The notes: a model not told the origin generated them from the sequence alone. A stretch of DNA of 64,000 bases from an uncultured Pseudomonadales bacterium (GCA_964519905.1 CAZFLN010000003.1:1413-65412), one strand, 5' to 3'. Counted from the first letter of the stretch, positions 8,856 to 64,000 are shown. Translations and numbers: made by a program.

Positions 8856-8880
8856 GGGAGTAGTATATCAGGCGAAAATG

Positions 8881-9810: not shown

Positions 9811-9869
9811 TTTATCAAAATTCTGGTGAATGTTTTCTTCAGTAGTACTTTCCCTGATATACTGACTCC

Positions 9870-11449: not shown

Positions 11450-11515
11450 GAAAATAAAAGTGAAGAAAACAGTTTTAAAATACGGTAGCATTAAAGGAAG
11501 TTCAACGCGGTGAGA

Positions 11516-46415: not shown

Positions 46416-46429
46416 AAGAAGTGGAACGT

Positions 46430-47404: not shown

Positions 47405-47440
47405 ATACAATCGAAAAGAGAGAAAGCGATTAAAGTTACT

Positions 47441-50283: not shown

Positions 50284-50300
50284 TACAGTAAGGAAGCACT

Positions 50301-51062
50301 ATGGCACATCCATATCTCTCAGTCATTATTCCTGCCTATAACGAAGCCAAGAATTTCCAGCGTGGAGCACTCGACGAAGTATTGGCATATCTTCAGAAAC
50401 AGTCATTTGCTTGGGAAGTTATTCTGAGTGATGATGGTTCAACCGACAATACCGTCGAACTCCTTGAAAAGTTTGCCAAGCGTCATGCTGGAGTTCGTGT
50501 TTTGCAGAATCCACATCAGGGAAAAGGCCCAACTGTGACTGCTGGTATGCTGGCTGCGACTGGAAAGTATCGTTTGTTTACTGATTTTGATCAGTCTACG
50601 CCGCTGTCTGAGTTTGAGAAATTCGAACCTTTCTTTGACGACGGATATGATGTGGTAATCGGTTCACGAGAGATTCAAGGAGCTCGTCGAAAAGACGAAC
50701 CAATTCATCGTCACATAATGGGCAAGGGATTTAATATGCTGGTGCAGTTTGTGGCTGTTCCAGGGATTCATGATACGCAGTGTGGATTTAAGCTTTTTTC
50801 TGCGGAAGCCACCGAAAAACTTTTTCCTCGTTTGCGCGTCTATGGAGCCAAAAAGCGACAGGATGCTTTCACTGGTGCGTTTGATGTGGAGTTGCTTTTG
50901 CTCGCCAGGCATTTTAAGTATCGCATCGCTGAGGTTCCGGTAGAGTGGAATCATCATGAGACTGATCGAGTGAGTCCACTCAAAGACTCTATTCGAATGT
51001 TGGTTGATGTTTTGCGAATTCGCTGGACTGCTCTACGAGGACTGTACTCACATGCTGAGTAA
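50301..51062 (+). CDS. polyprenol-phosphate glycosyltransferase (DPM/GtrB-like GT2)
   Basis: LSVIIPAYNEAKNF, VILSDDGSTDNT, DFDQSTP and a TQCGFKLF block. Confidence 0.75.
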   Translation: MAHPYLSVIIPAYNEAKNFQRGALDEVLAYLQKQSFAWEVILSDDGSTDNTVELLEKFAKRHAGVRVLQNPHQGKGPTVTAGMLAATGKYRLFTDFDQSTPLSEFEKFEPFFDDGYDVVIGSREIQGARRKDEPIHRHIMGKGFNMLVQFVAVPGIHDTQCGFKLFSAEATEKLFPRLRVYGAKKRQDAFTGAFDVELLLLARHFKYRIAEVPVEWNHHETDRVSPLKDSIRMLVDVLRIRWTALRGLYSHAE

Positions 51063-52332: not shown

Positions 52333-53254
52333 CAAGAATTCCCCAAGCAATTGCCGCAACCAAAAGTGGTTTATCGCGCAGCAAGACGCGTTCTGGGGAC
52401 TCTCCCTCATTTGATTCATAGACGAGTTGTAGATACCGCATGACTCCGTAAATCGTGAGTGGGACCGTAAGCATGAGAAGTTTTTGCGCCGAAAAAGCGC
52501 GAGGCAGAAACGCAAGGACTGGTGGGACCACGCCAGTAGAAATATCTGTTTCTTGTTGGAAGGCAAAGAGCGCATAGGTCAACCATGCCGCATTGGCGAA
52601 CATACCTGTGTAAATATCGAGCAAACGCACGGAATAGGTGTTGAGCGCTTTGCGTGTGGCAAAACTTTTTCCGGACTCATCAACTCCTGTGAGCAGTGTT
52701 CGCTCACTTTGGCGCTTGGCCACCGCAATAAAGAGTGAGACAGAAATAACTGTCAGCAAGAACCAGACGCTCATGTGCAGATTTACGACGACTGCTCCCG
52801 CGTATACTCGTACCATAAATCCCGCGGCAATGGAGAGCACATCAAGAATGGAAATATGCTTAAACACAAAGCTGTAGCTGACTTGCAAAGCGACATACGC
52901 CAACATCAGTAAAAACACAAACGGTGACAGCAACCAGCCGCCAAAAAGGGCTATGCTGACCAGCACTGAAGCGGCGATTCCGGCTGTAACTGGTGAGAGC
53001 TTTCCACTTGCCAACGGGCGCTTTTTCTTGAAGGGATGTTTGCTATCGGATTCGCGATCAACAATATCATTGAGAACGTAGATCGACGAGGAAAGAAAAC
53101 AAAACAAAATAAACGTTTCCGTGACTCTCCAAAAATAACTTGGGAAATCATAAAAGAAAAAACCAGAGAACACCAGAGCAGCGAAGACAGCCAAGTTTTT
53201 TAACCATTGGCGCGGTCGGAAAGTCTTGAGGAGATAATAGAGCGTTGTAACCAT
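52304..53254 (-). CDS. UbiA prenyltransferase family protein (decaprenyl-phosphate phosphoribosyltransferase-like)
   Basis: NDIVDRESD (NDxxDxxxD) motif followed by KKKRPLASGKLS. Eight to nine TM segments. Confidence 0.55.
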   Translation of the reverse strand: MVTTLYYLLKTFRPRQWLKNLAVFAALVFSGFFFYDFPSYFWRVTETFILFCFLSSSIYVLNDIVDRESDSKHPFKKKRPLASGKLSPVTAGIAASVLVSIALFGGWLLSPFVFLLMLAYVALQVSYSFVFKHISILDVLSIAAGFMVRVYAGAVVVNLHMSVWFLLTVISVSLFIAVAKRQSERTLLTGVDESGKSFATRKALNTYSVRLLDIYTGMFANAAWLTYALFAFQQETDISTGVVPPVLAFLPRAFSAQKLLMLTVPLTIYGVMRYLQLVYESNEGESPERVLLRDKPLLVAAIAWGILVMFVIYAIE

Positions 53255-54294
53255 ACCAGCAGAGTGATAAAGATCAGTCCTGCAGCCATCATAGCATATC
53301 GCTTGCCCTCACTGCGGAGGCTTAGAGCCAGGATTCCAAAGATGAGCGTGGTAAGCCAGTAAAATCGAGCTATCTGCGGAATACTCCAGCCTGAATCGAG
53401 CATGCGGTGGTGGAGGTGTCCTCGGTCTCCCCAGAACGGTGATTTGCCCGCCGCCAGGCGGCGGGTGACGGCAAAGACGGCGTCGGCGGTCGGGATCGCC
53501 AGGAGAAGTAAAACCGTGGCAAGTTTTGCCCCCGACAAAATAGCTAACACGGCTAGAAAGTATCCGGCCAGCGATCCCGCGGCGTATCCAGGCATCATTT
53601 TCTGTGGATATTTATTCCACATCAGCAAACCAAAGTAGGCTCCACTGACGCTCAGTGCCAAAATAGTCACTGGCCATTGGCTGGTATCTCCGGCAAATCG
53701 AAGACTCAGCAAGGCAATGACCAAGGCAGCAATTGTTACGAAGCCGGGAAGTTGCCCATCCACGCCTTTGGACCAGTTTACAGCGTTCATGTTCCAGACA
53801 ATCCACAAGAGCGCGAGTCCGTCGGCAATGGGAGAAAAAGAGGCCTGGTAACCGAGAATCGAAAAAACTTGTGTGCCAATGGTTAAGTCTATGGTTCCAG
53901 GACCAAATGGATTGGTGACATAGTCGATGCCCACTCCGCCAAGGATCACACAGCCAGCAGCCAAAAAATTGAGGAGCCAGCGAATAAGTGGGTGAATGTC
54001 GTAGCGGTCATCGAGTGTTCCGCTGATCAGGAGAATAATAGCCCCAAGAATGACGCCAAGAATGGCGGAATCCCAAGGCCAGAGCAAAAATCCTCCCAAA
54101 ATGAGTCCAGCGGCAATCACGAGTCCTCCACCACGGGGAACCGGTGTGGTATGCACAGTTTTGGGATGGGAATTTTTATTGGGATCGTCAATCCAGCCAA
54201 TTTGTGAATAGAGTCGAATCACCAATGGCGCGGCTGCGGTGGACAGAAAAGCGGATCCTGCCCAAAGCAGCCCAAAGAGTGCCGCGGGGTTCAT
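53200..54294 (-). CDS. polyprenyl-phosphate N-acetylhexosamine-1-phosphate transferase (WecA/MraY family)
   Basis: IDDPNKNSHPKTVHTTPVPRGGGLVI block and multiple TM segments. Start taken at MNPAALFGLLW. Confidence 0.6.
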   Translation of the reverse strand: MNPAALFGLLWAGSAFLSTAAAPLVIRLYSQIGWIDDPNKNSHPKTVHTTPVPRGGGLVIAAGLILGGFLLWPWDSAILGVILGAIILLISGTLDDRYDIHPLIRWLLNFLAAGCVILGGVGIDYVTNPFGPGTIDLTIGTQVFSILGYQASFSPIADGLALLWIVWNMNAVNWSKGVDGQLPGFVTIAALVIALLSLRFAGDTSQWPVTILALSVSGAYFGLLMWNKYPQKMMPGYAAGSLAGYFLAVLAILSGAKLATVLLLLAIPTADAVFAVTRRLAAGKSPFWGDRGHLHHRMLDSGWSIPQIARFYWLTTLIFGILALSLRSEGKRYAMMAAGLIFITLLVWLQRSIISSRLSDRANG

Positions 54295-54644
54295 AGGATA
54301 ACTTTCATTATTCTCAGGAGCGCTAAGAGAAGCATTCCTTGTAAGAAACATACCGCCCACCAATTTAAGTGAGCGAGGTAGTTTTCGTGCTCAAGGTCGG
54401 TGACTCGTCCGTACAAAAATCCGATTACGAGAATCCATGTACTCAGCGCCGCGAAACTTACAACTGCCCAACTTGGAGCCAGTTGGTCCGTGAATTGGGT
54501 CAGTGAGTACCAGAGGGGAAGCGTTGTTGGGCCAATCCAGTACAGAAGTCCGCTGAGCGCACAGACACTGAACCAGAGAGCAGTGGAAATTCCCATCAGT
54601 CGGTTATGCTTAAAGTCGTAGCGAGGGAAACGAATCTTGGCCAT
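54291..54644 (-). CDS. small hypothetical membrane protein
   Basis: 117 aa with three hydrophobic segments. Coupled between two glycosyltransferase genes. Coding status is uncertain. Confidence 0.3.
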   Translation of the reverse strand: MAKIRFPRYDFKHNRLMGISTALWFSVCALSGLLYWIGPTTLPLWYSLTQFTDQLAPSWAVVSFAALSTWILVIGFLYGRVTDLEHENYLAHLNWWAVCFLQGMLLLALLRIMKVIL

Positions 54645-54656
54645 ACGTGTATTGTA

Positions 54657-56300
54657 TCAATTCTGGAAAAGGTGCAGACTTGGGTTGTTTGGTAGAGCAC
54701 CGCTTTCTGCAGAACTGCGATGGTAGATGATCATTTCACTCGTTTCGAGCACGGGTACATAATTTTGATTCATGTAGGTTTTTAGTTCTGGCCAGAGGGA
54801 CTCTTTTTTCATTTCAACAATAATTTTTGGTTCTGCCGCGATGACATCTTGGAGTACTTCATCATAGTTCTTGAGATCGTGTATATGGAAGGCTACAGTA
54901 AAACGACTGGCCGGATGACGCTGTGCTTGCGCGTAGAGAGTTGGGTTTGTACCCCAAATAAAAATAGGATCACCAGATGGAACAACACTCTGGATGTATG
55001 GCACGAGAGTTTCATTTTGCGGAACGATTCCGTTGAATCGAGCGCGATACTCAGCTGGTTGGGTGTGTCCAGTGAGAAGTTTCCAGGCGTTTTCGTAGTA
55101 CTGTCGTGTGGGATAGTGTCCGAATCCAATAAGCTCAGAGGCTCCCCAGAAAAGAAAGAATGTTACGAGGATTCCCCCTCGAGTTAGCCAGCCGGTGCTT
55201 GTCTGAATGAACCAACCCACAAGAAGTGCCATTGGTGGCACGACTTGGATCAGATAGTGCGGATAGGGCCGATTGGATAATAGTGCGCCAAACAGCGCCG
55301 CAACCAGCCAGAACATGGTCCAGGCTGGGAGTGCTTGTTTGGGAAACTTCCAAGTCAGAAGCAGTGCCAGGAGGAAACTTGAGATGAGTACCATTGTTTT
55401 GCCTGGCAAACTGAGAAGAAACAGCAAAGCCGGGTTTTGAACTGGCAGTGACCATGTTCCAGTGTAATGGAAGTTGTAGAGCAGTCCAAATTCAAGATAC
55501 TCTGTCCCCGCGCCTCGCACCCAGAAATAGAGGATGGAGAGGAGCAGAGGAGTAACGAAACCAGCAGTGAGTGCCAAGCCATGGGCCAAGAGTATTTGCA
55601 GATTTTTGAAAGGTGATTTTTTCCTAGATTTAAGCGAGAGAAGGAACGAAAAAATCACCACACTGCCTATGGCTCCAAGATCCAGAATAGCAGGCACTTT
55701 TGTGAGCAATGCCAAGCCGACGACTGCTCCAGCAGCACCAAATCTCCAGAGTTGGTACCCAGGCGCAACAGGTGCTTTCTTATTTTCCAGTGTTTTCCAC
55801 CAGCCAGCACGAGCGAGCCACCACATACCAGCCAACAAAAATCCAAGCACAAAGAGTTCCCCATTTGGAATATTTCCTTCCCAGCGAGGCAGACAGGTGG
55901 CGAGTACAAATATTCCAGTTGCGAGCCACGTTCCCCAACGATTCAACCAGCGTTTCGCAAGAAGATAGAAAAAGGTAGTACTTGCCAAGCTCCAGACTAT
56001 ATTGAGCACTCGGAACCAAAACTGATCCGGAACCATTGCCAGGTAATAAATAATCGGAGTCTTATGATCAACGATGTCCCTGTACAGAATGGCTCCATTG
56101 CGGAGTGCAGTTCCTATGGTGAGATAGATGGCTTCGTCACCGTACCAGTAGGGCTCTGCTAAGTTGGGGATTCGCAAAAGCAGATTCAGTGCCAGGAATA
56201 TTAACAAGGCTTCCTGATTATTCGCCCAGGTATTGAATTGAAGAAATCGAGTTTTGATACTTTGCCACGAAAGAGTGTGTGAGACACGAGACATACACAA
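54657..56300 (-). CDS. GT-C fold membrane glycosyltransferase (family 39/83, ArnT/PMT-like)
   Basis: Loop motif AEPYWYGDEAIYLTIGTAL (DE motif). More than 10 TM segments. C-terminal soluble domain. Confidence 0.6.
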   Translation of the reverse strand: MCMSRVSHTLSWQSIKTRFLQFNTWANNQEALLIFLALNLLLRIPNLAEPYWYGDEAIYLTIGTALRNGAILYRDIVDHKTPIIYYLAMVPDQFWFRVLNIVWSLASTTFFYLLAKRWLNRWGTWLATGIFVLATCLPRWEGNIPNGELFVLGFLLAGMWWLARAGWWKTLENKKAPVAPGYQLWRFGAAGAVVGLALLTKVPAILDLGAIGSVVIFSFLLSLKSRKKSPFKNLQILLAHGLALTAGFVTPLLLSILYFWVRGAGTEYLEFGLLYNFHYTGTWSLPVQNPALLFLLSLPGKTMVLISSFLLALLLTWKFPKQALPAWTMFWLVAALFGALLSNRPYPHYLIQVVPPMALLVGWFIQTSTGWLTRGGILVTFFLFWGASELIGFGHYPTRQYYENAWKLLTGHTQPAEYRARFNGIVPQNETLVPYIQSVVPSGDPIFIWGTNPTLYAQAQRHPASRFTVAFHIHDLKNYDEVLQDVIAAEPKIIVEMKKESLWPELKTYMNQNYVPVLETSEMIIYHRSSAESGALPNNPSLHLFQN

Positions 56301-56331
56301 CAGTGTACCAGCTTGCAGAAGAGGCGGAAAC

Positions 56332-56360
56332 TCGAAAAATGACCGAATTTTTGGTATAAT
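56332..56360 (+). promoter_or_regulatory. promoter of ssrA (extended -10)
   Basis: TGgTATAAT at 56352-56360 with a weak -35 tcgaaa 17 bp upstream. Confidence 0.5.
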
Positions 56361-56402
56361 AAATAGGTGCGAATTTTTGCAATCAGAAATTCACACAGTT
56401 CT

Positions 56403-56788
56403 GGGGATGCATTGCGTTGACGGAACGAGATCGTGAACAGGAGCATGCCGAATTCTCCCGCGTTATGGGGGAGGCTTTTATCTGCCAATAAGATTTCATC
56501 TCTCGTGAACCGAGTAGCTACGGCTGTCTTTGGTTCCGAGTCTGCTTACGCTTTCGCGTAAACCAGATGTCGACTCATTCATCGTCTTAGCGTGAGTGAA
56601 CTCGGCAAAAACCCAGCTAAGATGCGTGTGTCGTTCTGCCCTTTGAGGAACGCGCACTAAGACACGCATTGGCGCCAAGTGTACGTTGGATCACTCACGA
56701 CACTTGGTTTAAGCAAAAGTGATCTGAGCATGGAGTGCCTGTTTATTTTCTCTTTCAGACTCGGGGTCGCTCCCCGACATCTCCACCA
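56403..56788 (+). ncRNA. ssrA: transfer-messenger RNA (tmRNA, SsrA)
   Basis: 5' GGGGAUG pairs with 3' CAUCUCC-A-CCA, including a G3-U wobble (the AlaRS identity element). T-arm-like hairpin before ACCA. GCAUGCCGA block as in E. coli tmRNA. Internal tag frame ends ...ESAYAFA-TAA (stop 56559-56561). A T7 run follows the 3' end. Confidence 0.85.
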
Positions 56789-56801
56789 GTTTTTTTGATG
56801 T

Positions 56802-57431
56802 TTATGCTCTTGCCACTGTGAGCGCATATATGTTTCTCACTCCAGCAGCGTTGAGAGCTCGAGCGCACGCACTGAGTGTGGCTCCTGTTGTGTGGACATC
56901 GTCTACCAGGCAAACGGTTTTGTACTGACTGCGTCGTGTACATCGAAACGCGGTGGTAATGTGGTGACGGTGATTTTTATCTTGTCCCGCCTGCGACTGC
57001 TGCCAGTGGGTTCGGTGTAGGAGTGTTGTGTCCGTGGGAATGCCTGATCGACAAGAAAGACGTTCTGCGAGCAGAACTGTCTGATTGAATCCTCGAGCGC
57101 GCTGGCGCTTGGGGTGGAGAGGGACTGGGATGAGTGCTTCTATTTTGTGTTGGTGGAGCCAAGGTTGGCTTTGCTGCGCCAGCGCGTCTCCCAGCGGCTG
57201 AGCAAGTACTCGTGCTCGTTTGTACTTATAGGTATGGAGGATTTTTGCCATGTGCTCGTCGTACTCACAGAGACTCCAGATTTTTCGCAGACTTGGATGG
57301 GCGAGTTTGGGCAGGACTTCTGGCCGATCACACCAAGACATTCTGCGCCAGCAACGGGCGCAAATCCATTTCCTGAATCGCCCACACCCTTGGCAAAACG
57401 GTGGAAACAATATATCGAGGATATGCATCAA
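56802..57431 (-). CDS. comF: ComF family protein (phosphoribosyltransferase domain)
   Basis: N-terminal Cys-rich zinc finger (CQGCGRF...CARCW). C-terminal PRTase motif VCLVDDVHTTGATL. Confidence 0.75.
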   Translation of the reverse strand: MMHILDILFPPFCQGCGRFRKWICARCWRRMSWCDRPEVLPKLAHPSLRKIWSLCEYDEHMAKILHTYKYKRARVLAQPLGDALAQQSQPWLHQHKIEALIPVPLHPKRQRARGFNQTVLLAERLSCRSGIPTDTTLLHRTHWQQSQAGQDKNHRHHITTAFRCTRRSQYKTVCLVDDVHTTGATLSACARALNAAGVRNIYALTVARA

Positions 57432-58269: not shown

Positions 58270-58356
58270 GGAAGGGTCGCATAGTGGTCGAGTGCGGTAG
58301 TCTTGAAAACTACTGAGGGTTTACGCTCTCCGTGGGTTCGAATCCCACCCCTTCCG
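58270..58356 (+). tRNA. tRNA-Ser (anticodon UGA)
   Basis: Acceptor GGAAGGG/CCCTTCC, 3-bp D-stem, anticodon stem GTAGT/ACTAC with loop CTTGAAA, long variable arm, T-arm GTGGG-TTCGAAT-CCCAC. No encoded CCA. Confidence 0.9.
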
Positions 58357-58486
58357 CAAGTCTTTCTCGCTTTCCCATTCGCTGCTATACATGGAATAAT
58401 TTGATGTATGGTGTACTATATGTTGTAAACTCACATCTCAGTTTTCCTTGTTTTTTTATGTAGTATGTAGAAGAAAAAATTTGTTT

Positions 58487-59317
58487 ATGAAAAATGCACA
58501 TTTTTTAAATGGTCAAATTGTCTCTGAGGATGATCTACAGATATCACCACGAGATTTGGGCTATTCCCGTGGATATGCTGTTTTTGAATTTATGCTTGCT
58601 CATAAAGGTCGTCCGTTTATGCTTGATAAGCATATGGATAGATTGTTTGCTTCTTGTGAGTCAATAGCACTTACTCTACCTTGGTCAAAAGAGCAAATTT
58701 CTGAATGGGTACTAAAAACTCTTGATGCAAATAAGTCTAAAGAAGAAAAAGTTATACGTATCATAATTTCCGGGGGACCATCTGAGACACTTGTTCCTGC
58801 AAGTATGCCCACCATAGTGATGGTGGTTGATTCTCGTCTTGGAGGCCTCCCTGAAGAATATGAAAAGGGCGTTCATGTTTTGCTTTCTGAATTTCAAAGG
58901 TATGAGCCTCAAGCTAAAACAAATAATTATATTGAAGCAGTTCGGCAGTTTAGATCCATACCTAAGGATATTCATGAAGTTATATATCATTCCGAAAATA
59001 TGGTGCGTGAAGGAACAAGGTGTAATGTGTTTGCATTGGTAAATGGTACTTTGGTCACTCCTAGAACTGGTATTTTGGAAGGAATCACAAGAAGTGTAAT
59101 ACTTAATGAATTACAACTGTCCCTACCAGTTGAGACGAGAGATTTTTCTGTAAAAGAATTACTTGAATCTCCAGAAGTATTCATCACTGCAACAAGTAAG
59201 GAAGTGATGCCAGTAACTAAGCTGAACAACCAACTTGTGGGAGATGGTTTAGTAGGTCCCGTCACCAAAGAGGTAATGAGTAAGTTCCGCGCTTTTTTTG
59301 AGTCAGATCTTTGGTAG
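58487..59317 (+). CDS. class IV (fold type IV) aminotransferase (D-amino-acid/branched-chain aminotransferase family)
   Basis: RGYAVFEFM, RIIISGGPS and EGTRCNVFALVNGTLVTPRTGILEGITRSV blocks. AT-rich codon usage. The true start is taken as MKNAHF. Confidence 0.65.
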   Translation: MKNAHFLNGQIVSEDDLQISPRDLGYSRGYAVFEFMLAHKGRPFMLDKHMDRLFASCESIALTLPWSKEQISEWVLKTLDANKSKEEKVIRIIISGGPSETLVPASMPTIVMVVDSRLGGLPEEYEKGVHVLLSEFQRYEPQAKTNNYIEAVRQFRSIPKDIHEVIYHSENMVREGTRCNVFALVNGTLVTPRTGILEGITRSVILNELQLSLPVETRDFSVKELLESPEVFITATSKEVMPVTKLNNQLVGDGLVGPVTKEVMSKFRAFFESDLW

Positions 59318-59325
59318 TTTTTTTG

Positions 59326-60138
59326 TTAGGTCCACAAAGATAGTGCCCCATCTTTCAATGTCATGAATGTGTTAAGTGCAAGTCGTGGTTTGTTTGACTT
59401 TATTGCTTCTACTTGGTGAAAATTTCGTGATCGAAACACTACTAAATCTCCCGCTGAGGGCATTACCGTGGCGTGTGGAGTACTATTGAGAAAGTCCTCG
59501 GTGAAGCCATACGTTCCTTTTTGTCCAATATCATTATTGTGCCCCTCGTCCTCTTGTTTCCAAGGTCGATTGTAGACAGTCAACCCTCCACCTTGAGCGA
59601 CCATCTGGAGATATAATACGAGACCAAATTGCTCCTGTGAATCAGATACGCTCCATCCTGGCAGTTGATTTGGAGCATAGTCAAAGTGTAGGGTGCTTTT
59701 TGCTCCCATAGCTCTAATAAGGCCTGCGAAGTATTGAGCATTTTGCATATCTGGTTCAGTCGCTAGAGAAGTGATGTAACTACGTGAAAAAAGTTCAATA
59801 ATTCTATTGATTGGGTTTCGGACGCCTTCAAATATTTCATCTCGAACTCTTGAAGCTTGTGGAGCTGAATCAAAGTACTTTTTCTTACCATCATCTTTAT
59901 AGTGATATTCTGTTGTGCTTATACCAATTCTACCCTGCTGATTTTCTTTGTTTGGGTACCACTGTATTGCTTTTTTTTCCAAATTTTTGATCACTATTTC
60001 GAGTTCTTGTGATAATAAGAATTGACTGATTTGAATAGCTGCAAATTCGTTTGCTGAAAGTGCTGGAAGGAGTGAGGATACTTCAACTGAGTCATCTGCG
60101 CCTAATTGAGCCACGCTCCATTGATTCTCTTTGCTCAT
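59326..60138 (-). CDS. 2-oxoglutarate/Fe(II)-dependent oxygenase superfamily protein
   Basis: HxD (LHFDY), distal His (NFHQVEAI) and Arg (RLAL) spaced as in PhyH/P4H-like dioxygenases. Confidence 0.5.
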   Translation of the reverse strand: MSKENQWSVAQLGADDSVEVSSLLPALSANEFAAIQISQFLLSQELEIVIKNLEKKAIQWYPNKENQQGRIGISTTEYHYKDDGKKKYFDSAPQASRVRDEIFEGVRNPINRIIELFSRSYITSLATEPDMQNAQYFAGLIRAMGAKSTLHFDYAPNQLPGWSVSDSQEQFGLVLYLQMVAQGGGLTVYNRPWKQEDEGHNNDIGQKGTYGFTEDFLNSTPHATVMPSAGDLVVFRSRNFHQVEAIKSNKPRLALNTFMTLKDGALSLWT

Positions 60139-60261
60139 AGTATCTCCTTTTCCTATCTATAATATGTTGTTTATAAATTTGGATCTTATCATGGAAGTTA
60201 CTTGGAAAGTAGCGCATACTTGGAATCGTGTATAATTTAGCATCTGGGAAAAGGTACTCAT

Positions 60262-61713
60262 ATGAAAATTGTAAATTTGCTGCTCATTGGACTCGGCCCT
60301 CACGCGAGACGTATTTATGTCCCCGCTCTTTTCAAATTAGCTAAGGATTTTCCTGTACGACTCATTGTCGCTGTAGACTTGAAAAGCCAAAAAAATTCTA
60401 TCGAGAATTACCTTCAGAATAATGGATATGATTTGGAAATGTTGTATCTTAATCCCTTTGATGTCACTGAAGGAATTCCTGATCGCTCAGAGCAAATGCT
60501 AAATTTTTTGGTTGATAGGTTTGATATACATGGTGTTGTCATATCGACAGAGCCCACTGTTCATAAGTCCTATGCCGAATGGGCCCTTCGAAAAAGGCTA
60601 CACATTCTTATGGACAAACCAATTTCTGTGAGGAAGGGTATTAGCGTTGATCAATCTCAAGCAAAGGGTTTGATTGATGACTATAATGAGCTTTTCAAGC
60701 TATACAAATCTATTCAGAAAGATAAATCAACAATTTTTTCTATAAACGTTCAGAGAAGATATGAGCGAGGCTTCGATAAAGTTCGAGATCTGGTTTCAGA
60801 AACAACTCAAAAGTTTAATGTTCCCGTGACATCTATGCAAATTATGCATGCTGACGGTTCATGGAGATTCCCAAAAGAAATACTCAGCCAACCATCTCAT
60901 GGTCTCCAAGATGGATTTGGGAAAGTGTCACATAGTGGATATCACTTGTTTGATATGGCTTGGCAAATCTATCAGTCTAGTCGTGTTCAAAATAAGCAAC
61001 CTGATCAACTAGAAATTTTTTCTTCACCTTTAAATCCTACAGGGCTCGACGTTAACTTGAATGAGAAAGACTATATCAAATATTTTGGATCTAACTATGA
61101 ACGAACCGGACTTTCTTCGAAGCAATACTTAGCCAAAGTCTCTGACTATGGTGAGATCGACTCATTTAACATGATCAGACTCCTTAAGGAGGGTGAGAAT
61201 ATTTGTAACATCTCTATAAATTTGTTGCATAGTAGTTTTTCAAGACGTTCATGGGCAAAACCCAATGAAGACCTATATAAGGGGAATGGAAGAGTAAAGC
61301 ATCAGCAATTTACAATTCAACAAGGGCCTTTTCAGTGTATCCAAGTTCATAACTATCAATCTAAAGATAAACATGATGTAGATAACTCTAATGAGTTTGA
61401 GGTGGGTGGAAACAATCATTTTGATATATATGTATTCCGTAATGTTGGTATGTTTGGTGAAGGAAATGCCTTCCAGAAAATATCTGCAACGGAATTAGAG
61501 GAACGGACAGATGATACCGGACTGACAAATGAAAATGCTAAACACCGTGTAATAATAGAATTTATTAATTTTATTCTTGGGCGAATACATTTGAATGATG
61601 TGAAATCAAATATTGACTCCCATGATGTTCCTACGAAGTTAATGAGTGGGGTGTCTCAGTCGAGTGCAAATATTCGTAGTAATAAAAATCCTTTAGTTCG
61701 TATCACGATATGA
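60262..61713 (+). CDS. Gfo/Idh/MocA family oxidoreductase with extended C-terminal domain
   Basis: N-terminal Rossmann KIVNLLLIGLGPHARRIYVPAL and HILMDKP (EKP-like) motif. 483 aa. An extended -10 TGTATAAT lies upstream. Confidence 0.6.
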   Translation: MKIVNLLLIGLGPHARRIYVPALFKLAKDFPVRLIVAVDLKSQKNSIENYLQNNGYDLEMLYLNPFDVTEGIPDRSEQMLNFLVDRFDIHGVVISTEPTVHKSYAEWALRKRLHILMDKPISVRKGISVDQSQAKGLIDDYNELFKLYKSIQKDKSTIFSINVQRRYERGFDKVRDLVSETTQKFNVPVTSMQIMHADGSWRFPKEILSQPSHGLQDGFGKVSHSGYHLFDMAWQIYQSSRVQNKQPDQLEIFSSPLNPTGLDVNLNEKDYIKYFGSNYERTGLSSKQYLAKVSDYGEIDSFNMIRLLKEGENICNISINLLHSSFSRRSWAKPNEDLYKGNGRVKHQQFTIQQGPFQCIQVHNYQSKDKHDVDNSNEFEVGGNNHFDIYVFRNVGMFGEGNAFQKISATELEERTDDTGLTNENAKHRVIIEFINFILGRIHLNDVKSNIDSHDVPTKLMSGVSQSSANIRSNKNPLVRITI

Positions 61714-62336
61714 CAGGATCAATTTATCTCATCGGGGGAGGAGAAATTAGAGGTGGGGAAACCCATCTAATCCATGAGAATATTATGTCGCTTGCTCCCA
61801 AAGGATCTACTCTCGTGTTTTTTGGTTTTGCTGCACAAGATAGTGCTGATTATGCTAATGCTATCAAATCTGTTTTTGGCAAGAAATTTAAAGTTTTAGT
61901 TCCTACAAAAGAAAAAGGTCATGAATATGCTATCAACGCTATTCAATCCTCATCAGTAATATATCTTGGCGGTGGCGATACAGATCTATTGATACGATTA
62001 TTTTCTGAGTGGAAGCTTGTTGAACATTTATCAGCTGCAGTCGCAAAAGGTGTTCATGTTGCGGGTATGAGTGCTGGGGCTCAAGCGTTGTCTCATTGGT
62101 ATATCCATGAAGAAGGCGAAAACATGGAAGTAAGAAAGGGTTGGGGTTTTGCTTCTGTCTGCACGCTAGTACATGCTCATCGAGACTCATTCGAAAAGGC
62201 CAAATCTGTATGGGAGAACTTCCCGAGAGAGGATGAGTGTTCTTTTGTGGCGATTGGCGAGAGAGCCGCCTGGTGTATTAACTCATCGGGAAAGCAAAGA
62301 ATTGGCAGTGGCAATATTTATGGAGAAGATTCTTAG
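61710..62336 (+). CDS. peptidase S51 family (dipeptidase E/cyanophycinase-like)
   Basis: IYLIGGGE, VIYLGGGDTDLL and catalytic-Ser block VAGMSAGAQAL. ATGA overlap with the upstream oxidoreductase. Confidence 0.6.
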   Translation: MTGSIYLIGGGEIRGGETHLIHENIMSLAPKGSTLVFFGFAAQDSADYANAIKSVFGKKFKVLVPTKEKGHEYAINAIQSSSVIYLGGGDTDLLIRLFSEWKLVEHLSAAVAKGVHVAGMSAGAQALSHWYIHEEGENMEVRKGWGFASVCTLVHAHRDSFEKAKSVWENFPREDECSFVAIGERAAWCINSSGKQRIGSGNIYGEDS

Positions 62337-62416
62337 TATTGTTTACCGAGTTAAGGTAACGAACGTGATACAATGCAATTGTTCTATTAAATCGCTAGGC
62401 ACCCAAGGGAGACGCA

Positions 62417-63079
62417 GTGAGTGAAAGAATAAATAACGTCTTTCGAACTGTTCAAGCTGAGACGCAGTGTCCTTTTGCTAAATCAGCCATTATCACATTT
62501 GCACGTCCAATTTCAGCTGAGTTTTCTATACCAGAAGCCGCTCAACAACTTTTTGAAGATCTTGTTGCTTATGTTAAAGAAGGTATTGTAACAGTGCCTG
62601 ATGGTCTGGCAGTTGCTCTGCCCAATACGGTGATTGGAGAAGACTTTAAATCCTTAACGTTAGGATTTAAGGCTCTGTACCACGCACTAAAAATACATGA
62701 TGGATTGAGCGAAGAGTCTATAACTACCGAGAACATTGAAGATCCAGGCTGGCAACTGACGATAGCCGAACAACGTCTATTTACACTTGTTTTTGGATCG
62801 TTGTATCCTGCTAATAACCCACGTCATATTTCTATAGCGGACACTACTTTTGTATTTTTTCAACCAGTTCAAAGTTTTAGCGATCGAATACCAGCTGATA
62901 AGCACAGCGAAGAATTCAAGAAACTAAAACAGAGTATTCGGACTCGCTTTAGTGAAGCAGGAAGAGCGTATGATGCAGCCATCCATGATGACCCACGAGA
63001 AGCTGCGAAATATCTGTCCCCTCTACATTTAGGCATGCCAGCGGTGGAGTGGTGGAAAAGTGATCGGCCTGAAGAATAG
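62417..63079 (+). CDS. YqcI/YcgG family protein (tentative)
   Basis: N-terminal QCPFAKSAIITF resembles the FPCxFA signature of YqcI/YcgG. Size is ~220 aa. Confidence 0.35.
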   Translation: MSERINNVFRTVQAETQCPFAKSAIITFARPISAEFSIPEAAQQLFEDLVAYVKEGIVTVPDGLAVALPNTVIGEDFKSLTLGFKALYHALKIHDGLSEESITTENIEDPGWQLTIAEQRLFTLVFGSLYPANNPRHISIADTTFVFFQPVQSFSDRIPADKHSEEFKKLKQSIRTRFSEAGRAYDAAIHDDPREAAKYLSPLHLGMPAVEWWKSDRPEE

Positions 63080-63121
63080 TTTTATTCAACCTAAAATTTA
63101 TCAGTAATTAAAGGAGTTGTT

Positions 63122-64000
63122 ATGACGGAGCATTTGAAATCGAGATTTCAGCAATACCATCAGGATAAAGGTTTTTCTATTTACAAACCCTTTCCATTAG
63201 TAACTACTGATGATCCTACGGTTTTGTTTACCAATGCTACTATTACTCCATTTAAAAACATGTTTACCGGAGAAACGGCTGCTGGAAATTATGCTCTTGT
63301 GCAAAAGTGTCTTCGTTTAGGCGGCACGGGTGGGAATGCGGATAGAGCTCGCGAGGACATACACTACACTTCACTGTTTGAGATGCTTGGTAGTGGGTAT
63401 TTTGGTGTAAGTCCAGTGGTTGCCCTAGAATATTTCGTTGAAATGTTAGAGGCATTAGGGCTCCAAATGGAAAAAATGATCTTTTCTTCAATAGAAGGCA
63501 ATCCACTAGCAGCGGCACTCATGTCTTCGACCTTAGATTTAAATCAGATTCGTATTGTTAAAGACCCGAAAGAATTGCAACATGAGTGGAGTTTTGGCGA
63601 AGGAGATTTGCATGGCGTTGGCGTGATTGCATGGTTTGACTCAGAAGGACTAGGAAAAAACACTGCTTTGAGTGACTGTTTGCAGATAGGTAGGATTGTA
63701 CACATTGATGGTATTTCTGAAGGCGGATCTGTAAGACCTTTTGAGTACAACGCATTTGATGTGGGATTGGGTATGGGTAGAGTTGAGCGTGCTATAACAG
63801 GTCAAGGGGAAGCTTCCTTACAGCCTTGGAGGGATCTATCTAAACAATTTAAAAATATTTTTGAGCATATCTCTGATGGAGATGCTCACTACATGTCAAA
63901 TCTTTGCCTGGTTATTGATGAGTTAACTTTTGAAGGACTAGAACCAGGGAAGAAGAAACACTCGTACGTACTTAGAAAAATTATTCGTTCCTTGATAGAG
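63122..64000 (+). CDS. alanyl-tRNA synthetase catalytic-domain paralog (divergent; C-terminus beyond window)
   Basis: Strong RBS AAAGGAG. Open frame to the window end. Collinear AlaRS blocks: DPTVLFTNATITPFKNMFTG, QKCLRLGG, HYTSLFEMLGSGYFG, DVGLGMGRVERAI and SYVLRKIIRSL. The motif-2 Arg context (RHHTFFEMLGN) and the GPCGPC block are not conserved. Confidence 0.6.
   Translation, partial: MTEHLKSRFQQYHQDKGFSIYKPFPLVTTDDPTVLFTNATITPFKNMFTGETAAGNYALVQKCLRLGGTGGNADRAREDIHYTSLFEMLGSGYFGVSPVVALEYFVEMLEALGLQMEKMIFSSIEGNPLAAALMSSTLDLNQIRIVKDPKELQHEWSFGEGDLHGVGVIAWFDSEGLGKNTALSDCLQIGRIVHIDGISEGGSVRPFEYNAFDVGLGMGRVERAITGQGEASLQPWRDLSKQFKNIFEHISDGDAHYMSNLCLVIDELTFEGLEPGKKKHSYVLRKIIRSLIE

What the first reader, a model, noticed from the sequence alone, without database searches (positions are those of the whole stretch)
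58357..64000. AT-rich island at tRNA-Ser carrying an AlaRS paralog, YqcI/YcgG, S51 peptidase, oxidoreductase, oxygenase and aminotransferase
Directly 3' of tRNA-Ser(UGA) the sequence becomes visibly AT-richer. Gene content switches from housekeeping to six genes of amino-acid and small-molecule chemistry:
- a class IV aminotransferase;
- a 2OG/Fe(II) oxygenase (HxD...H...R seen);
- a 483-aa Gfo/Idh/MocA oxidoreductase, translationally coupled to
- a peptidase S51/cyanophycinase-like enzyme;
- a YqcI/YcgG-like protein;
- an AlaRS catalytic-domain paralog that runs off the window.
tRNA adjacency plus a compositional shift is the classic signature of a horizontally acquired island. aaRS paralogs inside such islands are known as self-resistance genes or tailoring ligases (IleRS in mupirocin producers, SerRS in albomycin, AlaRS-like AcmD/AcmF in ascamycin). 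I am not aware of this gene combination as a described system. It is a candidate for biosynthesis of, or immunity to, an amino-acid-derived or aminoacyl-nucleotide-like compound.
Basis: partly seen in the sequence, partly recalled or inferred. Interest (0 to 1): 0.8.

Follow-up and report, generated by a model that had tools for sequence, protein, structure and literature searches.

The report
Mobile AlaRS-core biosynthetic cassette in Patescibacteria
Next to a tRNA-Ser gene sits a low-GC, horizontally moving six-gene cassette found in scattered ultra-small (CPR/Patescibacteria) bacteria; its enzymes, including a truncated alanyl-tRNA-synthetase core that still looks able to activate an amino acid, probably build an unknown amino-acid-bearing small molecule.

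Summary
tRNA-Ser(UGA) ends at 58357. GC then falls from 0.46 to 0.39 (GC3 0.24-0.33 against about 0.44), and all six predicted genes are present.

Extending the window with an identical contig shows the AlaRS-like gene encodes only 370 aa, the catalytic core. The low-GC tract runs about 8.1 kb.

The core set is class IV aminotransferase, HxD Fe/2OG oxygenase, 483-aa Gfo/Idh/MocA dehydrogenase, coupled S51 peptidase and AlaRS core. It recurs as a unit, with unrelated flanks, in Levybacteria, Saccharimonadales, Nomurabacteria and other Patescibacteria MAGs, often beside different tRNA genes. The YqcI/YcgG haem N-hydroxylase is an optional sixth gene.

The ligase keeps AlaRS adenylation residues but has an invariant Asn212-to-Arg change. 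It lacks the editing and C-Ala domains and the distal part of the tRNA-recognition region, so a housekeeping or resistance AlaRS is unlikely.

Best reading: an undescribed mobile small-molecule pathway. It would hydroxylate, oxidise and transaminate a precursor, then add an ATP-activated small amino acid. The peptidase would serve immunity or maturation. The product is unknown; a puromycin-like aminoacyl-aminonucleoside and an arginine-derived dipeptide are both open. No integrase or attachment repeat was found.

The parts
58270..58357 (+). tRNA-Ser(UGA), marking the left edge of the low-GC island
   Evidence: ARAGORN. GC drops immediately 3' of it. No copy of its 3' end occurs downstream to position 66852.
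58358..58486 (.). Spacer between the tRNA and the cassette, not conserved with relatives
   Evidence: DNA homology to the closest relative L002 starts only at 58485. One weak promoter-like match at 58372-58400 is not above shuffled expectation.
58487..59317 (+). Fold-type IV (class IV) PLP aminotransferase, 276 aa from the ATG (the ORF is open from TTG at 58448)
   Evidence: PF01063 at 138.8 bits. It is equally close to BCAT and D-amino-acid transaminase structures (E about 1e-37 to 1e-34). No NCBIfam equivalog cut-off is reached. K144, E175 and R91 are invariant in 13 orthologs. The exact 276-aa product is on record.
59326..60138 (-). Fe(II)/2-oxoglutarate oxygenase of the WelO5-type family, of hydroxylase type (HxD)
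   Evidence: PF22814 at 70.5 bits and PF13640 at 34.7 bits. H151-F-D153, H241 and R252 are invariant in 13 orthologs. It is only remotely similar to WelO5 structures (E about 1e-4). It is convergent with the aminotransferase gene, 8 bp apart.
60139..60261 (.). Divergent intergenic region between the oxygenase gene and the dehydrogenase operon, presumed to hold promoters
   Evidence: Gene layout. The same divergent layout is conserved in the co-linear loci and, mirrored or permuted, in L007 and L020. The promoter scan is uninformative, so the promoter role is inference only.
60262..61713 (+). Enlarged (483 aa) Gfo/Idh/MocA-fold NAD(P) dehydrogenase, the most conserved cassette protein
61710..62336 (+). 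Peptidase S51 (cyanophycinase/PepE-like serine peptidase), translationally coupled to the dehydrogenase
   Evidence: PF03575 at 67 bits. It matches cyanophycinase 7uqv at E 1e-5 and PepE at 8e-3. S121 in G-x-S-A-G-A, H155 and E184 are invariant. The 4-nt ATGA overlap with the upstream gene is conserved in 10 other loci.
62417..63079 (+). YqcI/YcgG-family protein (thiolate-haem N-hydroxylase fold), an accessory gene of the cassette
   Evidence: PF08892 at 21 bits, below the cut-off. Most of 82 close relatives carry a precomputed PF08892 hit, and some are named 'FPC/CPF motif-containing protein YcgG'. For the AF2 model (pLDDT 68) the five best PDB matches are all AglA (probability 1.0, TM 0.51-0.55), with the next match at probability 0.11. 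C18-P19 are invariant and F20 nearly invariant. The gene is present in 6 of 13 loci, in two alternative positions.
63122..64000 (+). AlaRS catalytic-core paralog ('alanine--tRNA ligase-related protein'). It continues to 64234 in the identical contig L001 and is 370 aa in total
   Evidence: PF01411 at 74.8 bits. The alaS equivalog scores 65 bits against a cut-off of 457. The full ORF is in L001 1080-2192. An AAAGGAG ribosome-binding site lies upstream. Equivalents of E. coli R69, F90/M92, W170, V214, D235, G237 and the motif-3 Arg are invariant, while N212 is an invariant Arg.

Best explanation
The region is a horizontally mobile small-molecule pathway cassette of Patescibacteria (CPR bacteria). 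It is about 5.75 kb long and carries five core genes plus one optional gene. In this genome it sits inside an 8.1-kb low-GC island immediately 3' of tRNA-Ser(UGA).

**Shown**
- The five core genes travel together across distant CPR lineages with unrelated flanks.
- All catalytic residues are conserved.
- The ligase is a 370-aa AlaRS core that is not the housekeeping AlaRS.

**Inferred mechanism**
1. The HxD Fe/2OG oxygenase hydroxylates a C-H bond of a free precursor.
2. The Gfo/Idh/MocA dehydrogenase oxidises a secondary alcohol to a ketone. This is either the new hydroxyl or a sugar hydroxyl.
3. The fold-type IV aminotransferase converts the ketone into an amine.
4. The AlaRS core activates a small amino acid (Ala, Gly or Ser size) as an aminoacyl-AMP. 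It then transfers it to that amine or to another small-molecule acceptor rather than to tRNA, giving an aminoacyl or peptidyl conjugate.
5. The S51 serine peptidase is made stoichiometrically with the dehydrogenase. It hydrolyses the amide for self-protection or for maturation.
6. In some lineages, including this one, a YqcI/YcgG thiolate-haem enzyme adds an N-hydroxyl group.

**Product**
The product is unknown. Two concrete versions remain open: a puromycin-like aminoacyl-aminonucleoside and an arginine-derived dipeptide.
For: **Island**
- GC is 0.39 against 0.46 and GC3 is 0.24-0.33 against about 0.44. The region lies below every upstream 5.6-kb window.

**Mobility as a unit**
- The same genes are present in L002 (88% ligase identity), a Levyibacteriota MAG, several Saccharimonadales MAGs, a Nomurabacteria MAG (permuted order) and others. 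The flanks are completely different.
- DNA homology to L002 is confined to 58485-64211.
- At least 31 contig lengths of 5 kb or more are shared between the ligase and dehydrogenase hit lists. This is a proxy for co-occurrence.
- Only 12 of 185,579 GTDB species representatives matched the ligase patterns. Eleven of them carry the cassette and one carries the distant 35% homolog.
- A tRNA lies within 600 bp in 5 of 13 loci: Ser, Asn twice, Tyr and His.
- The cassette GC is 4-8 points below the flanks in higher-GC hosts.
- An IS30-type transposase sits next to the cassette in L015.

**Enzymology**
- Catalytic residues are invariant in all five core proteins.
- The ligase retains the motif-2 Arg, the adenine-stacking Phe, the Trp/Val/Gly pocket residues, the alpha-amino-binding Asp and the motif-3 Arg.
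- AcmF, by contrast, lost its adenylation residues and uses Ala-tRNA (PMC12945691).
- The position equivalent to the G3:U70-reading Asn is variable (N16/K11/S4). The protein stops near E. coli residue 400.
- The dehydrogenase's closest folds include WlbA, GenD2 and GnnA. Each feeds a partner aminotransferase (established knowledge).
- The Pur10/Pur4 pair sets the same precedent on ATP (PMC11641026).

**Not housekeeping**
- A canonical-type 623-aa AlaRS lies beside the cassette in L020.

**Not a known defence system**
- PADLOC gave no specific hits.
Against: - No product, substrate or activity is shown. Every chemical step is inferred from family membership.
- No transporter, regulator, integrase or att repeat is part of the conserved unit.
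- Sugar or nucleoside aminotransferases that partner with Gfo/Idh/MocA dehydrogenases are normally fold type I, not type IV (my knowledge).
- The aminotransferase keeps the BCAT-type carboxylate-binding Arg (R91). This fits alpha-keto-acid chemistry rather than amination of a ketone.
- The helical segment that contacts the tRNA acceptor stem in AlaRS is strongly conserved and basic (K278, R285, K286, R289), so tRNA or minihelix binding is not excluded.
- Two lineages add an editing-less 431-aa AlaRS fragment. This would fit a tRNA-dependent route.
- The host's taxonomy and its own alaS could not be checked, because the NCBI contig was not retrievable.
Confidence: 0.6

Rival explanations
1. This is a tRNA-dependent pathway. 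The 370-aa AlaRS core either works like AcmF, taking Ala-tRNA(Ala) as the acyl donor for a small-molecule amine. Or it is a minimal, editing-free synthetase that charges tRNA(Ala) or a minihelix with Ala, Ser, Gly or a non-canonical amino acid made by the other enzymes.
For: - AcmF is a truncated AlaRS-like enzyme with exactly this role (PMC12945691).
- The acceptor-stem-contacting helix region P275...R289 is highly conserved and basic.
- L015 and L016 carry an extra 431-aa AlaRS fragment covering the catalytic and tRNA-recognition regions (alaS model 1-411, 299 bits) directly upstream of the cassette. This is reminiscent of the AcmD/AcmF pair.
- The cassette often sits beside tRNA genes.
Against: - AcmF lost its ATP and alanine-activation residues, whereas this family keeps them invariant.
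- The Asn equivalent that reads G3:U70 is not conserved (N/K/S).
- The protein ends near E. coli residue 400. From my recollection of the Schimmel-laboratory deletion studies, this is short of the 461-residue fragment needed for tRNA charging.
- The neighbouring tRNAs are Ser, Asn, Tyr and His, never Ala.
- The second AlaRS fragment is present in only 2 of 13 loci.
Confidence: 0.2
2. This is a nutrient-salvage or catabolic module of an auxotrophic episymbiont. The S51 peptidase would split scavenged (iso)dipeptides such as beta-Asp-Arg or Asp-X. The oxygenase, dehydrogenase and aminotransferase would then interconvert the released amino acids.
For: - S51 enzymes are cyanophycinases and dipeptidases.
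- Class IV aminotransferases are primary-metabolism enzymes (BCAT, D-amino-acid transaminase).
- CPR bacteria lack most amino-acid biosynthesis (general knowledge).
- The conserved unit contains no exporter.
Against: - An ATP-consuming aaRS-core ligase that is strictly linked to the set has no role in catabolism.
- The distribution is very patchy, with only 12 GTDB species representatives matching the ligase patterns.
- The cassette shows island-like composition and flank turnover.
- The optional partner is a YqcI/YcgG N-hydroxylase. All characterised members of that family act in antibiotic or toxin biosynthesis (PMC12866846).
Confidence: 0.12
3. The AlaRS paralog is a self-resistance (decoy or insensitive) AlaRS, or one half of a split housekeeping AlaRS.
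For: No canonical alaS is present within the 66.8 kb examined.
Against: - The protein is only 370 aa, with no editing or C-Ala domain and an incomplete tRNA-recognition region.
- It has an invariant N212-to-Arg change in the active site.
- It scores 65 bits against the alaS cut-off of 457.
- It is always embedded in the enzyme cassette.
- L020 has a canonical-type 623-aa AlaRS next to it.
- It is absent from nearly all CPR genomes, so it cannot be a needed half of the essential enzyme.
Confidence: 0.04

Closest known systems
AcmF (with AcmD and AcmE) of ascamycin biosynthesis, Streptomyces sp. 80H647
   Same: It is a truncated AlaRS-like protein inside a small-molecule gene cluster that attaches an alanyl group to a small-molecule amine. 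A hydrolase (AcmE) removes the aminoacyl group (PMC12945691).
   Different: - AcmF has lost its ATP and Ala-activation residues (N219Q, D232E) and uses Ala-tRNA. The CPR family keeps R65, F86, W156, V193, D213, G215 and R220 invariant and has N212-to-Arg instead.
- No sulfamate or nucleoside-sulfamate genes are present.
- The hydrolase here is S51, not an alpha/beta-hydrolase.
- The hosts are CPR bacteria, not actinomycetes.
aaRS-core paralogs that ligate an activated amino acid to a non-tRNA amine: MshC (CysRS-like, acting on GlcN-Ins), EpmA/PoxA (LysRS-like, acting on EF-P) and SerRS-like amino acid:carrier-protein ligases (from my own knowledge)
   Same: A catalytic core without the tRNA-body-binding part makes an aminoacyl-adenylate and transfers it to an amine or thiol acceptor other than tRNA. 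This is the mechanism proposed here.
   Different: Those enzymes derive from CysRS, LysRS or SerRS. To my knowledge and in the searches made, no adenylation-competent AlaRS-derived example has been described. The acceptor here is unknown.
Puromycin, A201A, cystocin and ADG 3'-aminonucleoside pathways (Pur10 dehydrogenase, Pur4 aminotransferase, Pur6 coupling enzyme, PAC GNAT, NapH hydrolase)
   Same: - The logic is an NAD-dependent secondary-alcohol dehydrogenase, then an aminotransferase, then aminoacyl coupling, with acetyltransferase or hydrolase self-protection (PMC11641026).
- The ADG cluster is also a small low-GC island (PMC9239236).
- A GNAT follows the cassette in this genome.
   Different: - The conserved unit has no Pur7 NUDIX, Pur3 phosphatase or Pur6 homolog.
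- The aminotransferase is fold type IV. Pur4-type enzymes are fold type I by my recollection, which was not checked here.
- An Fe/2OG oxygenase is present that the pur pathway lacks.
- The GNAT is not conserved with the cassette.
- The similarity is one of pathway logic, not homology.
WlbA/WlbC, GnnA/GnnB and GenD2/GenS2 dehydrogenase-aminotransferase pairs
   Different: - Sequence identity is only 11-13%.
- The cassette enzyme is about 140 residues longer.
- It has DKP instead of the EKP motif.
- It is paired with a type IV aminotransferase.
- No nucleotide-sugar genes are in the cassette.
YqcI/YcgG thiolate-haem guanidine N-hydroxylases (AglA, DcsA, GntA, Mhr24, AmbT, ChmN)
   Same: The fold matches AglA, and the N-terminal Cys-Pro-Phe motif that supplies the haem thiolate is conserved (PMC12866846). 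Family members work in peptide, nucleoside and amino-acid antibiotic pathways.
   Different: - Identity to AglA is only 13-16%.
- The window protein scores below Pfam's gathering threshold.
- No redox partner is encoded nearby.
- The substrate is unknown.
- The gene is optional in the cassette.

Membership tests
Canonical alanine--tRNA ligase (alaS) | Reaches the curated equivalog score for alaS (TIGR00344 cut-off 457 bits), with a full architecture of catalytic, tRNA-recognition, editing and C-Ala domains | tested here: not met
   It scores 65.1 bits and covers only model positions 3-307 of 847. The protein is 370 aa, and the profile aligns to E. coli AlaRS residues 5-371 only.
Canonical alanine--tRNA ligase (alaS) | Active-site Asn212 (E. 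coli numbering) and the Asn that reads the G3:U70 pair | tested here: not met
   The N212 equivalent is Arg in 31 of 31 family members. The position aligned with the PSNEN segment is N16/K11/S4 and is Lys in the window protein. The exact residue correspondence to N303 is my own reading of the alignment.
Class II aaRS adenylation core (AlaRS type) | Motif-2 Arg, adenine-stacking Phe, alpha-amino-binding Asp, motif-3 Arg | tested here: met
   R65, F86, D213 and G215 are invariant, and R220 is present in 30 of 31 sequences. Activity itself cannot be tested with these tools.
AcmF-type AlaRS-like aminoacyl-tRNA-dependent transferase | Loss of ATP and alanine-activation residues (N219Q, D232E in AcmF), with a dedicated AlaRS partner in the cluster | tested here: not met
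   The Asp and both Arg residues are retained. A partner AlaRS fragment is present only in L015 and L016, not in the window. The AcmF sequence itself was not available for direct comparison.
Peptidase S51 | Pfam PF03575 above its gathering score, plus the Ser nucleophile in a GxSxG-type motif with His and Glu | tested here: met
   It scores 67 bits against a cut-off of 23.9. S121 in G-M-S-A-G-A, H155 and E184 are invariant in 12 orthologs. Assigning H155 and E184 to the catalytic triad is inference. The cyanophycinase and PepE equivalog cut-offs are not reached.
Gfo/Idh/MocA oxidoreductase | Two-domain fold (N-terminal Rossmann plus C-terminal alpha/beta domain), a GxGxxG/A dinucleotide motif and an EKP motif | tested here: met
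Fe(II)/2OG oxygenase, WelO5-type; halogenase versus hydroxylase | PF22814 above its cut-off; halogenases have HxG/A, hydroxylases have HxD/E | tested here: met
   It scores 70.5 bits against a cut-off of 27. H151-F-D153 is invariant, so it is a hydroxylase-type member and not a halogenase. The motif rule is as stated in PMC11186838.
YqcI/YcgG haem N-hydroxylases | PF08892 membership, the AglA 'sandwich' fold, and the N-terminal Cys haem ligand (FPC/CPF motif) | tested here: met
   The window protein scores 21 bits, below the cut-off of 27, but most close relatives carry a precomputed PF08892 hit. The top five Foldseek PDB matches are AglA at probability 1.0, although the model's pLDDT is only 68 and the Cys region has low confidence. 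C18-P19 are invariant. Haem binding cannot be tested here.
Class IV aminotransferase subfamilies (BCAT, D-amino-acid transaminase, ADC lyase) | Reaches a curated equivalog or subfamily score; carries the subfamily-specific carboxylate-binding residues | tested here: inconclusive
   PF01063 scores 138.8 bits, but every NCBIfam model is far below its cut-off, the best being 160 against 363. The protein has the BCAT-like Arg (R91). By my manual alignment it lacks the R98/H100 pair of D-amino-acid transaminases. Its specificity is undetermined.
tRNA-integrated genomic island | tRNA adjacency, compositional shift, variable presence among relatives, an integrase, and a direct repeat of the tRNA 3' end | tested here: inconclusive
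   The first three features are met. No repeat of the tRNA-Ser 3' end of 15 nt or more occurs up to 66852. No integrase ORF lies in the 8.5 kb downstream. About 10 kb of the source contig could not be retrieved.
Puromycin-type 3'-aminonucleoside gene cluster | Homologs of Pur10, Pur4, Pur7 (NUDIX), Pur3 (phosphatase) and Pur6 | tested here: not met
   Only a fold-level analog of the dehydrogenase is present. The aminotransferase is fold type IV, and the cassette has no NUDIX, phosphatase or Pur6-like gene. Sequences of the Pur proteins were not available for direct comparison. The resemblance is one of pathway logic only.
Known anti-phage defence systems (PADLOC) | A hit to any defence-system protein model | tested here: not met
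   There were only generic 2OG-domain 'CRISPR-associated' hits for the oxygenase. The other seven proteins gave nothing.

The most novel reading that the evidence does not exclude
CPR bacteria use an AlaRS catalytic core, freed from tRNA, as the coupling enzyme of a puromycin-like pathway.

- The oxygenase, Gfo-type dehydrogenase and aminotransferase would make a 3'-amino (or other amino) nucleoside or nucleotide.
- The AlaRS core normally acylates the 3'-OH of the terminal adenosine of tRNA. Here it would acylate that amine instead, producing a stable mimic of the aminoacyl-tRNA 3' end.
- The mimic would be used against hosts or competitors.
- The S51 peptidase, together with the neighbouring GNAT, APH or Erm-type genes, would provide self-protection.

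If true, this would be a new enzymatic route to aminoacyl-nucleoside antibiotics and the first defined antibiotic pathway of the Candidate Phyla Radiation.
Probability: 0.15. Interest if true: 0.85.

Novelty: new variant of a known kind. Interest (0 to 1): 0.62.

Why it matters
Patescibacteria/CPR bacteria have tiny genomes and are thought to have almost no specialised metabolism.

A conserved, laterally exchanged enzyme cassette suggests they make, or at least process, a dedicated bioactive small molecule. It was found in hundreds of metagenomic contigs, but only 12 species representatives in GTDB matched its ligase. This bears on how these episymbionts interact with hosts and competitors.

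The cassette also defines a new paralog family of AlaRS: 366-392 aa, adenylation residues kept, Asn212 replaced by Arg. This may be the first AlaRS-derived, tRNA-independent amide ligase. If so, it adds to the short list of aaRS cores recruited to small-molecule chemistry.

The unit is small (under 6 kb) and self-contained, so it can be tested directly by synthesis and heterologous expression.

Tried and rejected
1. **Attachment-site repeat.** I searched for the tRNA-Ser 3' end (15-45 nt, with mismatches allowed) and for shared 11-mers downstream. Nothing was found.
2. **Integrase or recombinase in the extension.** None was found.
3. **Retrieving the 77.4-kb NCBI source contig.** Look-ups with four window proteins returned only short Logan contigs or nothing. 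The last roughly 10 kb, the assembly accession and the host taxonomy therefore remain unknown.
4. **Sequence searches against the PDB.** Neither single sequences nor profiles found informative relatives for the GFO-like and YqcI-like proteins. Structure prediction plus fold search was needed.
5. **Promoter and terminator scans.** Results were not above shuffled expectation.
6. **PADLOC.** This is not a known defence system.
7. **Microcin-C analogy.** I tested it on the cluster around the 35%-identical ligase (L008). The S66 peptidase is only generically LdcA-like and the decarboxylase only generically LysA-like, so I did not rely on the analogy.
8. **Substrate class from the WelO5 Pfam hit.** I rejected this, because the literature treats the WelO5, BesD and AdaV families as separate.
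9. **Split or housekeeping AlaRS and resistance AlaRS.** I rejected both on architecture, score, patchy distribution and the adjacent canonical-type AlaRS in L020.
10. **Literature.** Searches for AlaRS-like paralogs and for CPR gene clusters found no description of this cassette.

Full report
**1. Checking the observation**

ARAGORN finds tRNA-Ser(UGA) at 58270-58357 on the + strand.

The composition shift is real.
- In 1-kb windows GC is 0.48-0.50 for 52-58 kb and 0.36-0.43 for 58-64 kb.
- Region 58358-64000 has GC 0.391, against 0.463 for everything upstream.
- No 5.6-kb window upstream goes below 0.423 (mean 0.464, sd 0.014).
- Third-position GC is 0.24-0.33 for every gene of the region. 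It is 0.47-0.54 for the three genes just upstream and 0.33-0.57 across the rest of the window.

The six genes exist as described: class IV aminotransferase 58487-59317 (+), Fe/2OG oxygenase 59326-60138 (-), a 483-aa protein 60262-61713 (+), S51 peptidase 61710-62336 (+, ATGA overlap), a YqcI/YcgG-like protein 62417-63079 (+), and an AlaRS-like ORF from 63122 (+) that runs off the window.

The upstream flank (46-58 kb) is an envelope-glycosylation cluster. It holds GDP-mannose 4,6-dehydratase, two GT2 genes, GtrA, PMT_2, GT4, UbiA and a DedA/VTT protein.

**2. Extending the window**

An exact-protein look-up returned a 4,810-bp contig, L001. It is identical to the window over the 1,958-nt overlap.

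- The AlaRS-like gene ends at window-equivalent 64234 and encodes only 370 aa.
- An SDR (237 aa), a 65-aa ORF and a GNAT (168 aa) follow, all with low GC (0.36-0.43).
- On the opposite strand comes the 3' part of a gene of host-like GC (0.49). It scores as an Erm-type 23S rRNA methyltransferase (E 2e-18) rather than KsgA (2e-6).

The low-GC island is therefore about 8.1 kb long (58358 to about 66490).

It contains no integrase and no copy of the tRNA-Ser 3' end. The window comes from a 77,420-bp NCBI contig that I could not retrieve. About 10 kb downstream, the host's taxonomy and its own alaS therefore remain unchecked. No canonical AlaRS lies within the 66.8 kb available.

**3. The gene set is a conserved, mobile unit of Patescibacteria**

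The 370-aa protein has more than 500 homologs. Nearly all are 366-392 aa, and NCBI names some of them 'alanine--tRNA ligase-related protein' in Levybacteria, Saccharimonadales, Nomurabacteria and unclassified Patescibacteria MAGs.

Neighbourhoods were taken from 11 look-ups and a GTDB scan, then mapped by tblastn.
- The aminotransferase, oxygenase, dehydrogenase, S51 peptidase and ligase co-occur wherever the ligase is at least 48% identical. The one exception is L020, which lacks the S51 gene.
- Order and orientation are the same in all loci except two: L007 is permuted, and L020 is mirrored and lacks the S51 gene.
- The flanks are entirely unrelated from locus to locus.
- At DNA level, homology between the window and its closest relative (L002, 85% identity) runs from 58485 to 64211. 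This is almost exactly from the aminotransferase start codon to the end of the ligase gene.
- The SDR and GNAT genes are not shared with any other locus.
- The dehydrogenase/S51 start-stop overlap is conserved in ten other loci.
- The YqcI gene is present in six lineages and in two alternative positions, before or after the ligase gene. Its 82 database relatives form one tight clade of at least 56% identity.
- At least 31 contig lengths of 5 kb or more are shared between the ligase and dehydrogenase hit lists. This is a rough proxy for co-occurrence.
- Only 12 of 185,579 GTDB species representatives matched the ligase search patterns. Two of them are labelled Dormiibacterota and Bdellovibrionales, which may be binning errors.

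A tRNA lies within 600 bp of the cassette in 5 of 13 loci (Ser, Asn twice, Tyr, His), and within 2 kb in two more. I assumed about one tRNA per 22 kb in a 1-Mb genome and about eight independent contexts. On that basis I estimate the chance of four or more such adjacencies at below 1e-3. This is a rough calculation of my own, not a tool result.

The cassette GC (0.33-0.48) is 4-8 points below the flanks in the higher-GC hosts and similar to the flanks in low-GC hosts.

An IS30-type transposase lies next to the cassette in L015. L017 has a tandem duplicate that includes its tRNA-His.

Together these results support repeated lateral transfer of the cassette as a unit, preferentially into tRNA-proximal sites. 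The classical integrase and att signature is missing.

**4. The proteins**

*Ligase.*
- A family profile aligns to E. coli AlaRS residues 5-371 (E 8e-27) and ends near residue 400.
- These positions are invariant in 31 diverse members (E. coli residue in brackets): R65 (R69, motif 2), F86 and M88 (adenine stacking), W156 (W170), V193 (V214), D213 (D235, which binds the alpha-amino group) and G215 (G237). R220 (motif-3 Arg) is present in 30 of 31.
- N212 is replaced by an invariant Arg (R191).
- The position aligned with the Asn that reads G3:U70 is variable (N16/K11/S4). The surrounding basic helix (K278, R285, K286, R289) is conserved.
- The alaS equivalog model scores 65 bits against a cut-off of 457.
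- In L020 a canonical-type 623-aa AlaRS lies right beside the cassette.

The protein is therefore an extra paralog. It looks competent for adenylating a small amino acid but is not built like a tRNA synthetase. By my recollection of the classic E. coli deletion studies, a fragment of about 368-385 residues makes Ala-AMP but needs residues up to 461 to charge tRNA. I could not check this here.

The closest described precedent is AcmF, a truncated AlaRS-like enzyme of ascamycin biosynthesis. AcmF has lost its activation residues and uses Ala-tRNA as donor (PMC12945691). The CPR family differs on exactly that point.

*Dehydrogenase.*
- Sequence methods see only the Rossmann/EKP segment.
- An AlphaFold2 model from 46 homologs is confident (pLDDT 89.6, pTM 0.92).
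- G10-x-G12 and D118-K119-P120 are invariant.
- WlbA, GenD2 and GnnA each oxidise a sugar hydroxyl for a partner aminotransferase (established knowledge).
- Pur10 and Pur4 do the same on ATP in puromycin-type pathways (PMC11641026).

*Oxygenase.* It belongs to PF22814 (70.5 bits) with invariant H151-x-D153, H241 and R252. It is therefore a hydroxylase-type, carrier-protein-independent Fe/2OG enzyme and not a halogenase.

*Aminotransferase.* PF01063 scores 139 bits. The protein is equidistant from BCAT and D-amino-acid transaminase structures. K144, E175 and R91 are invariant, and no equivalog cut-off is met.

*S51 peptidase.* It scores 67 bits. S121 in GxSAGA, H155 and E184 are invariant. It is weakly closest to cyanophycinase and PepE.

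*YqcI-like protein.*
- The Pfam score is below threshold.
- The AF2 model (pLDDT 68) hits only AglA structures convincingly: probability 1.0 and TM 0.51-0.55, with the next hit at probability 0.11.
- The Cys-Pro-Phe motif that supplies the haem thiolate is conserved.
- Characterised members N-hydroxylate guanidine groups in antibiotic and toxin pathways (PMC12866846).
- A member also sits in a Yersinia microcin-C-like operon (PMC4010828).

None of the proteins belongs to a known defence system.

**5. How it most likely works**

*Shown.* This is a conserved, laterally mobile set of five catalytically intact enzymes plus an optional sixth. The ligase is neither the housekeeping AlaRS nor an AcmF-type enzyme.

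*Inferred.* The oxygenase, dehydrogenase and aminotransferase form a C-H to C-OH to C=O to C-NH2 sequence, or oxidise and aminate an existing hydroxyl, on a free precursor. The AlaRS core activates an Ala-, Gly- or Ser-sized amino acid and couples it to an amine of that precursor. The S51 peptidase, co-translated with the dehydrogenase, reverses or matures the amide. YqcI adds an N-hydroxyl group in some lineages.

Two concrete product classes fit.

(a) An aminoacyl-aminonucleoside.
- *For:* the dehydrogenase's structural neighbours; the Pur10/Pur4 precedent; the natural acceptor of AlaRS is an adenosine 3'-OH.
- *For:* NUDIX genes sit next to dehydrogenase homologs of about 50% identity in L025 and L026.
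- *For:* GNAT, APH and Erm-type genes lie near some cassettes.
- *Against:* the aminotransferase is fold type IV, and the cassette has no NUDIX or phosphatase gene.

(b) An arginine- or diamino-acid-derived dipeptide.
- *For:* all characterised YqcI enzymes act on Arg derivatives; S51 enzymes cleave Asp-X and beta-Asp-Arg bonds; the aminotransferase has a BCAT-like carboxylate-binding Arg.
- *Against:* a sugar-type dehydrogenase fold would be unusual for this chemistry.

I cannot discriminate between the two with the tools available.

**6. Rivals**

- *tRNA-dependent route* (AcmF-like transfer, or a minimal editing-free synthetase). It remains possible at about 0.2. The acceptor-stem-contacting helix is conserved, and L015 and L016 add a 431-aa AlaRS fragment covering the catalytic and tRNA-recognition regions.
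- *Salvage or catabolic role* (about 0.12). It does not explain an obligatorily linked ATP-dependent ligase, the patchy island-like distribution or the YqcI partner.
- *Resistance or split-AlaRS role* (about 0.04). Architecture, score and distribution contradict it.

**7. Comparison with what is known, and novelty**

The kind is known: aaRS paralogs recruited into small-molecule pathways, such as AcmF, SbzA, MshC and the SerRS-like ligases. This combination of enzymes, this AlaRS-core family (adenylation residues kept, N212 to Arg) and its restriction to CPR bacteria appear undescribed in the literature I could search.

I rate it a new variant of a known kind. It is interesting mainly because CPR bacteria are thought to lack specialised metabolism, and because the unit is small enough to test directly.

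Noticed in passing
L001 4448-4810 (-), equivalent to window positions 66490-66852, just beyond the low-GC island: The 3' part of a gene scores as an Erm-type 23S rRNA (A2058) methyltransferase (NF000499, E 2e-18) rather than KsgA (E 2e-6). Its GC is host-like (0.49). An rRNA-methylase resistance gene bordering a possible antibiotic cassette is suggestive, but the gene is cut by the contig end.
   Followed up: partly
L001 2561-4428, equivalent to window positions 64603-66470: An SDR (237 aa; aldose or butanediol dehydrogenase-like, below cut-offs), a 65-aa ORF, a GNAT (168 aa) and a 64/85-aa ORF are as AT-rich as the cassette (GC 0.36-0.43). They have no homolog next to the cassette in any other locus, so this is a second, host-specific cargo segment of the island.
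   Followed up: partly
L015 3159-5617 and L016 3820-4998: Two Saccharimonadales-type loci carry, directly upstream of the cassette, an extra 431-aa AlaRS fragment. It covers the catalytic and tRNA-recognition regions (alaS model positions 1-411, 299 bits) and has no editing domain. L015 also carries an IS30-type transposase.
   Followed up: partly
L017 5608-17362: The whole cassette together with its tRNA-His is present twice in tandem, with a period of about 6,250 bp and identical tblastn scores. The contig is labelled Bdellovibrionales. This is either a real duplication or an assembly or binning artefact.
   Followed up: no
L008, L009 and L023 (Hainich groundwater Patescibacteria MAG), around 3534-12107: A ligase homolog of 35% identity sits in a different cluster. 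That cluster contains an S66 peptidase, a LysA-like PLP decarboxylase, three methyltransferases, two dCTP-deaminase-like proteins, AdoMet decarboxylase and deoxyhypusine synthase, next to a large serine recombinase. It may be a second AlaRS-core-based small-molecule pathway, nucleotide- or polyamine-related.
   Followed up: partly
L025 8482-16553 and L026 8102-17328: Homologs of the 483-aa dehydrogenase at about 50% identity lie in another conserved cluster. It contains an SHMT-like PLP enzyme, a TPP-dependent enzyme and an SDR or GNAT. It is flanked by several NUDIX hydrolases, and by a pyrophosphatase (L025) or a nucleoside deoxyribosyltransferase-like gene (L026).
   Followed up: no
L005 and L006 13847-14611: A heliorhodopsin gene (PF18761) lies about 2.7 kb downstream of the cassette in two Saccharimonadales MAGs.
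   Followed up: no
window 46421-57431: This is a large envelope-glycosylation cluster: GDP-mannose 4,6-dehydratase, two GT2 genes (one fused to GtrA), PMT_2-type glycosyltransferases, GT4 and a UbiA prenyltransferase. Three large ORFs have no Pfam hit: 51004-52332, 54657-56300 and 56802-57431.
   Followed up: partly
window 3468-6035 and 8881-9810: These are other low-GC patches (GC 0.39-0.41; gene GC3 0.35-0.37) inside the otherwise 0.46-GC window. They may be further acquired segments.
   Followed up: no
L003 11367-12317 and L007 5600-6517: An APH-family phosphotransferase gene lies close to the cassette in the Levybacteria and Nomurabacteria MAGs: just downstream of the ligase gene in L003, and about 2.8 kb upstream of the S51 gene in L007. 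It could be a resistance-type kinase.
   Followed up: no
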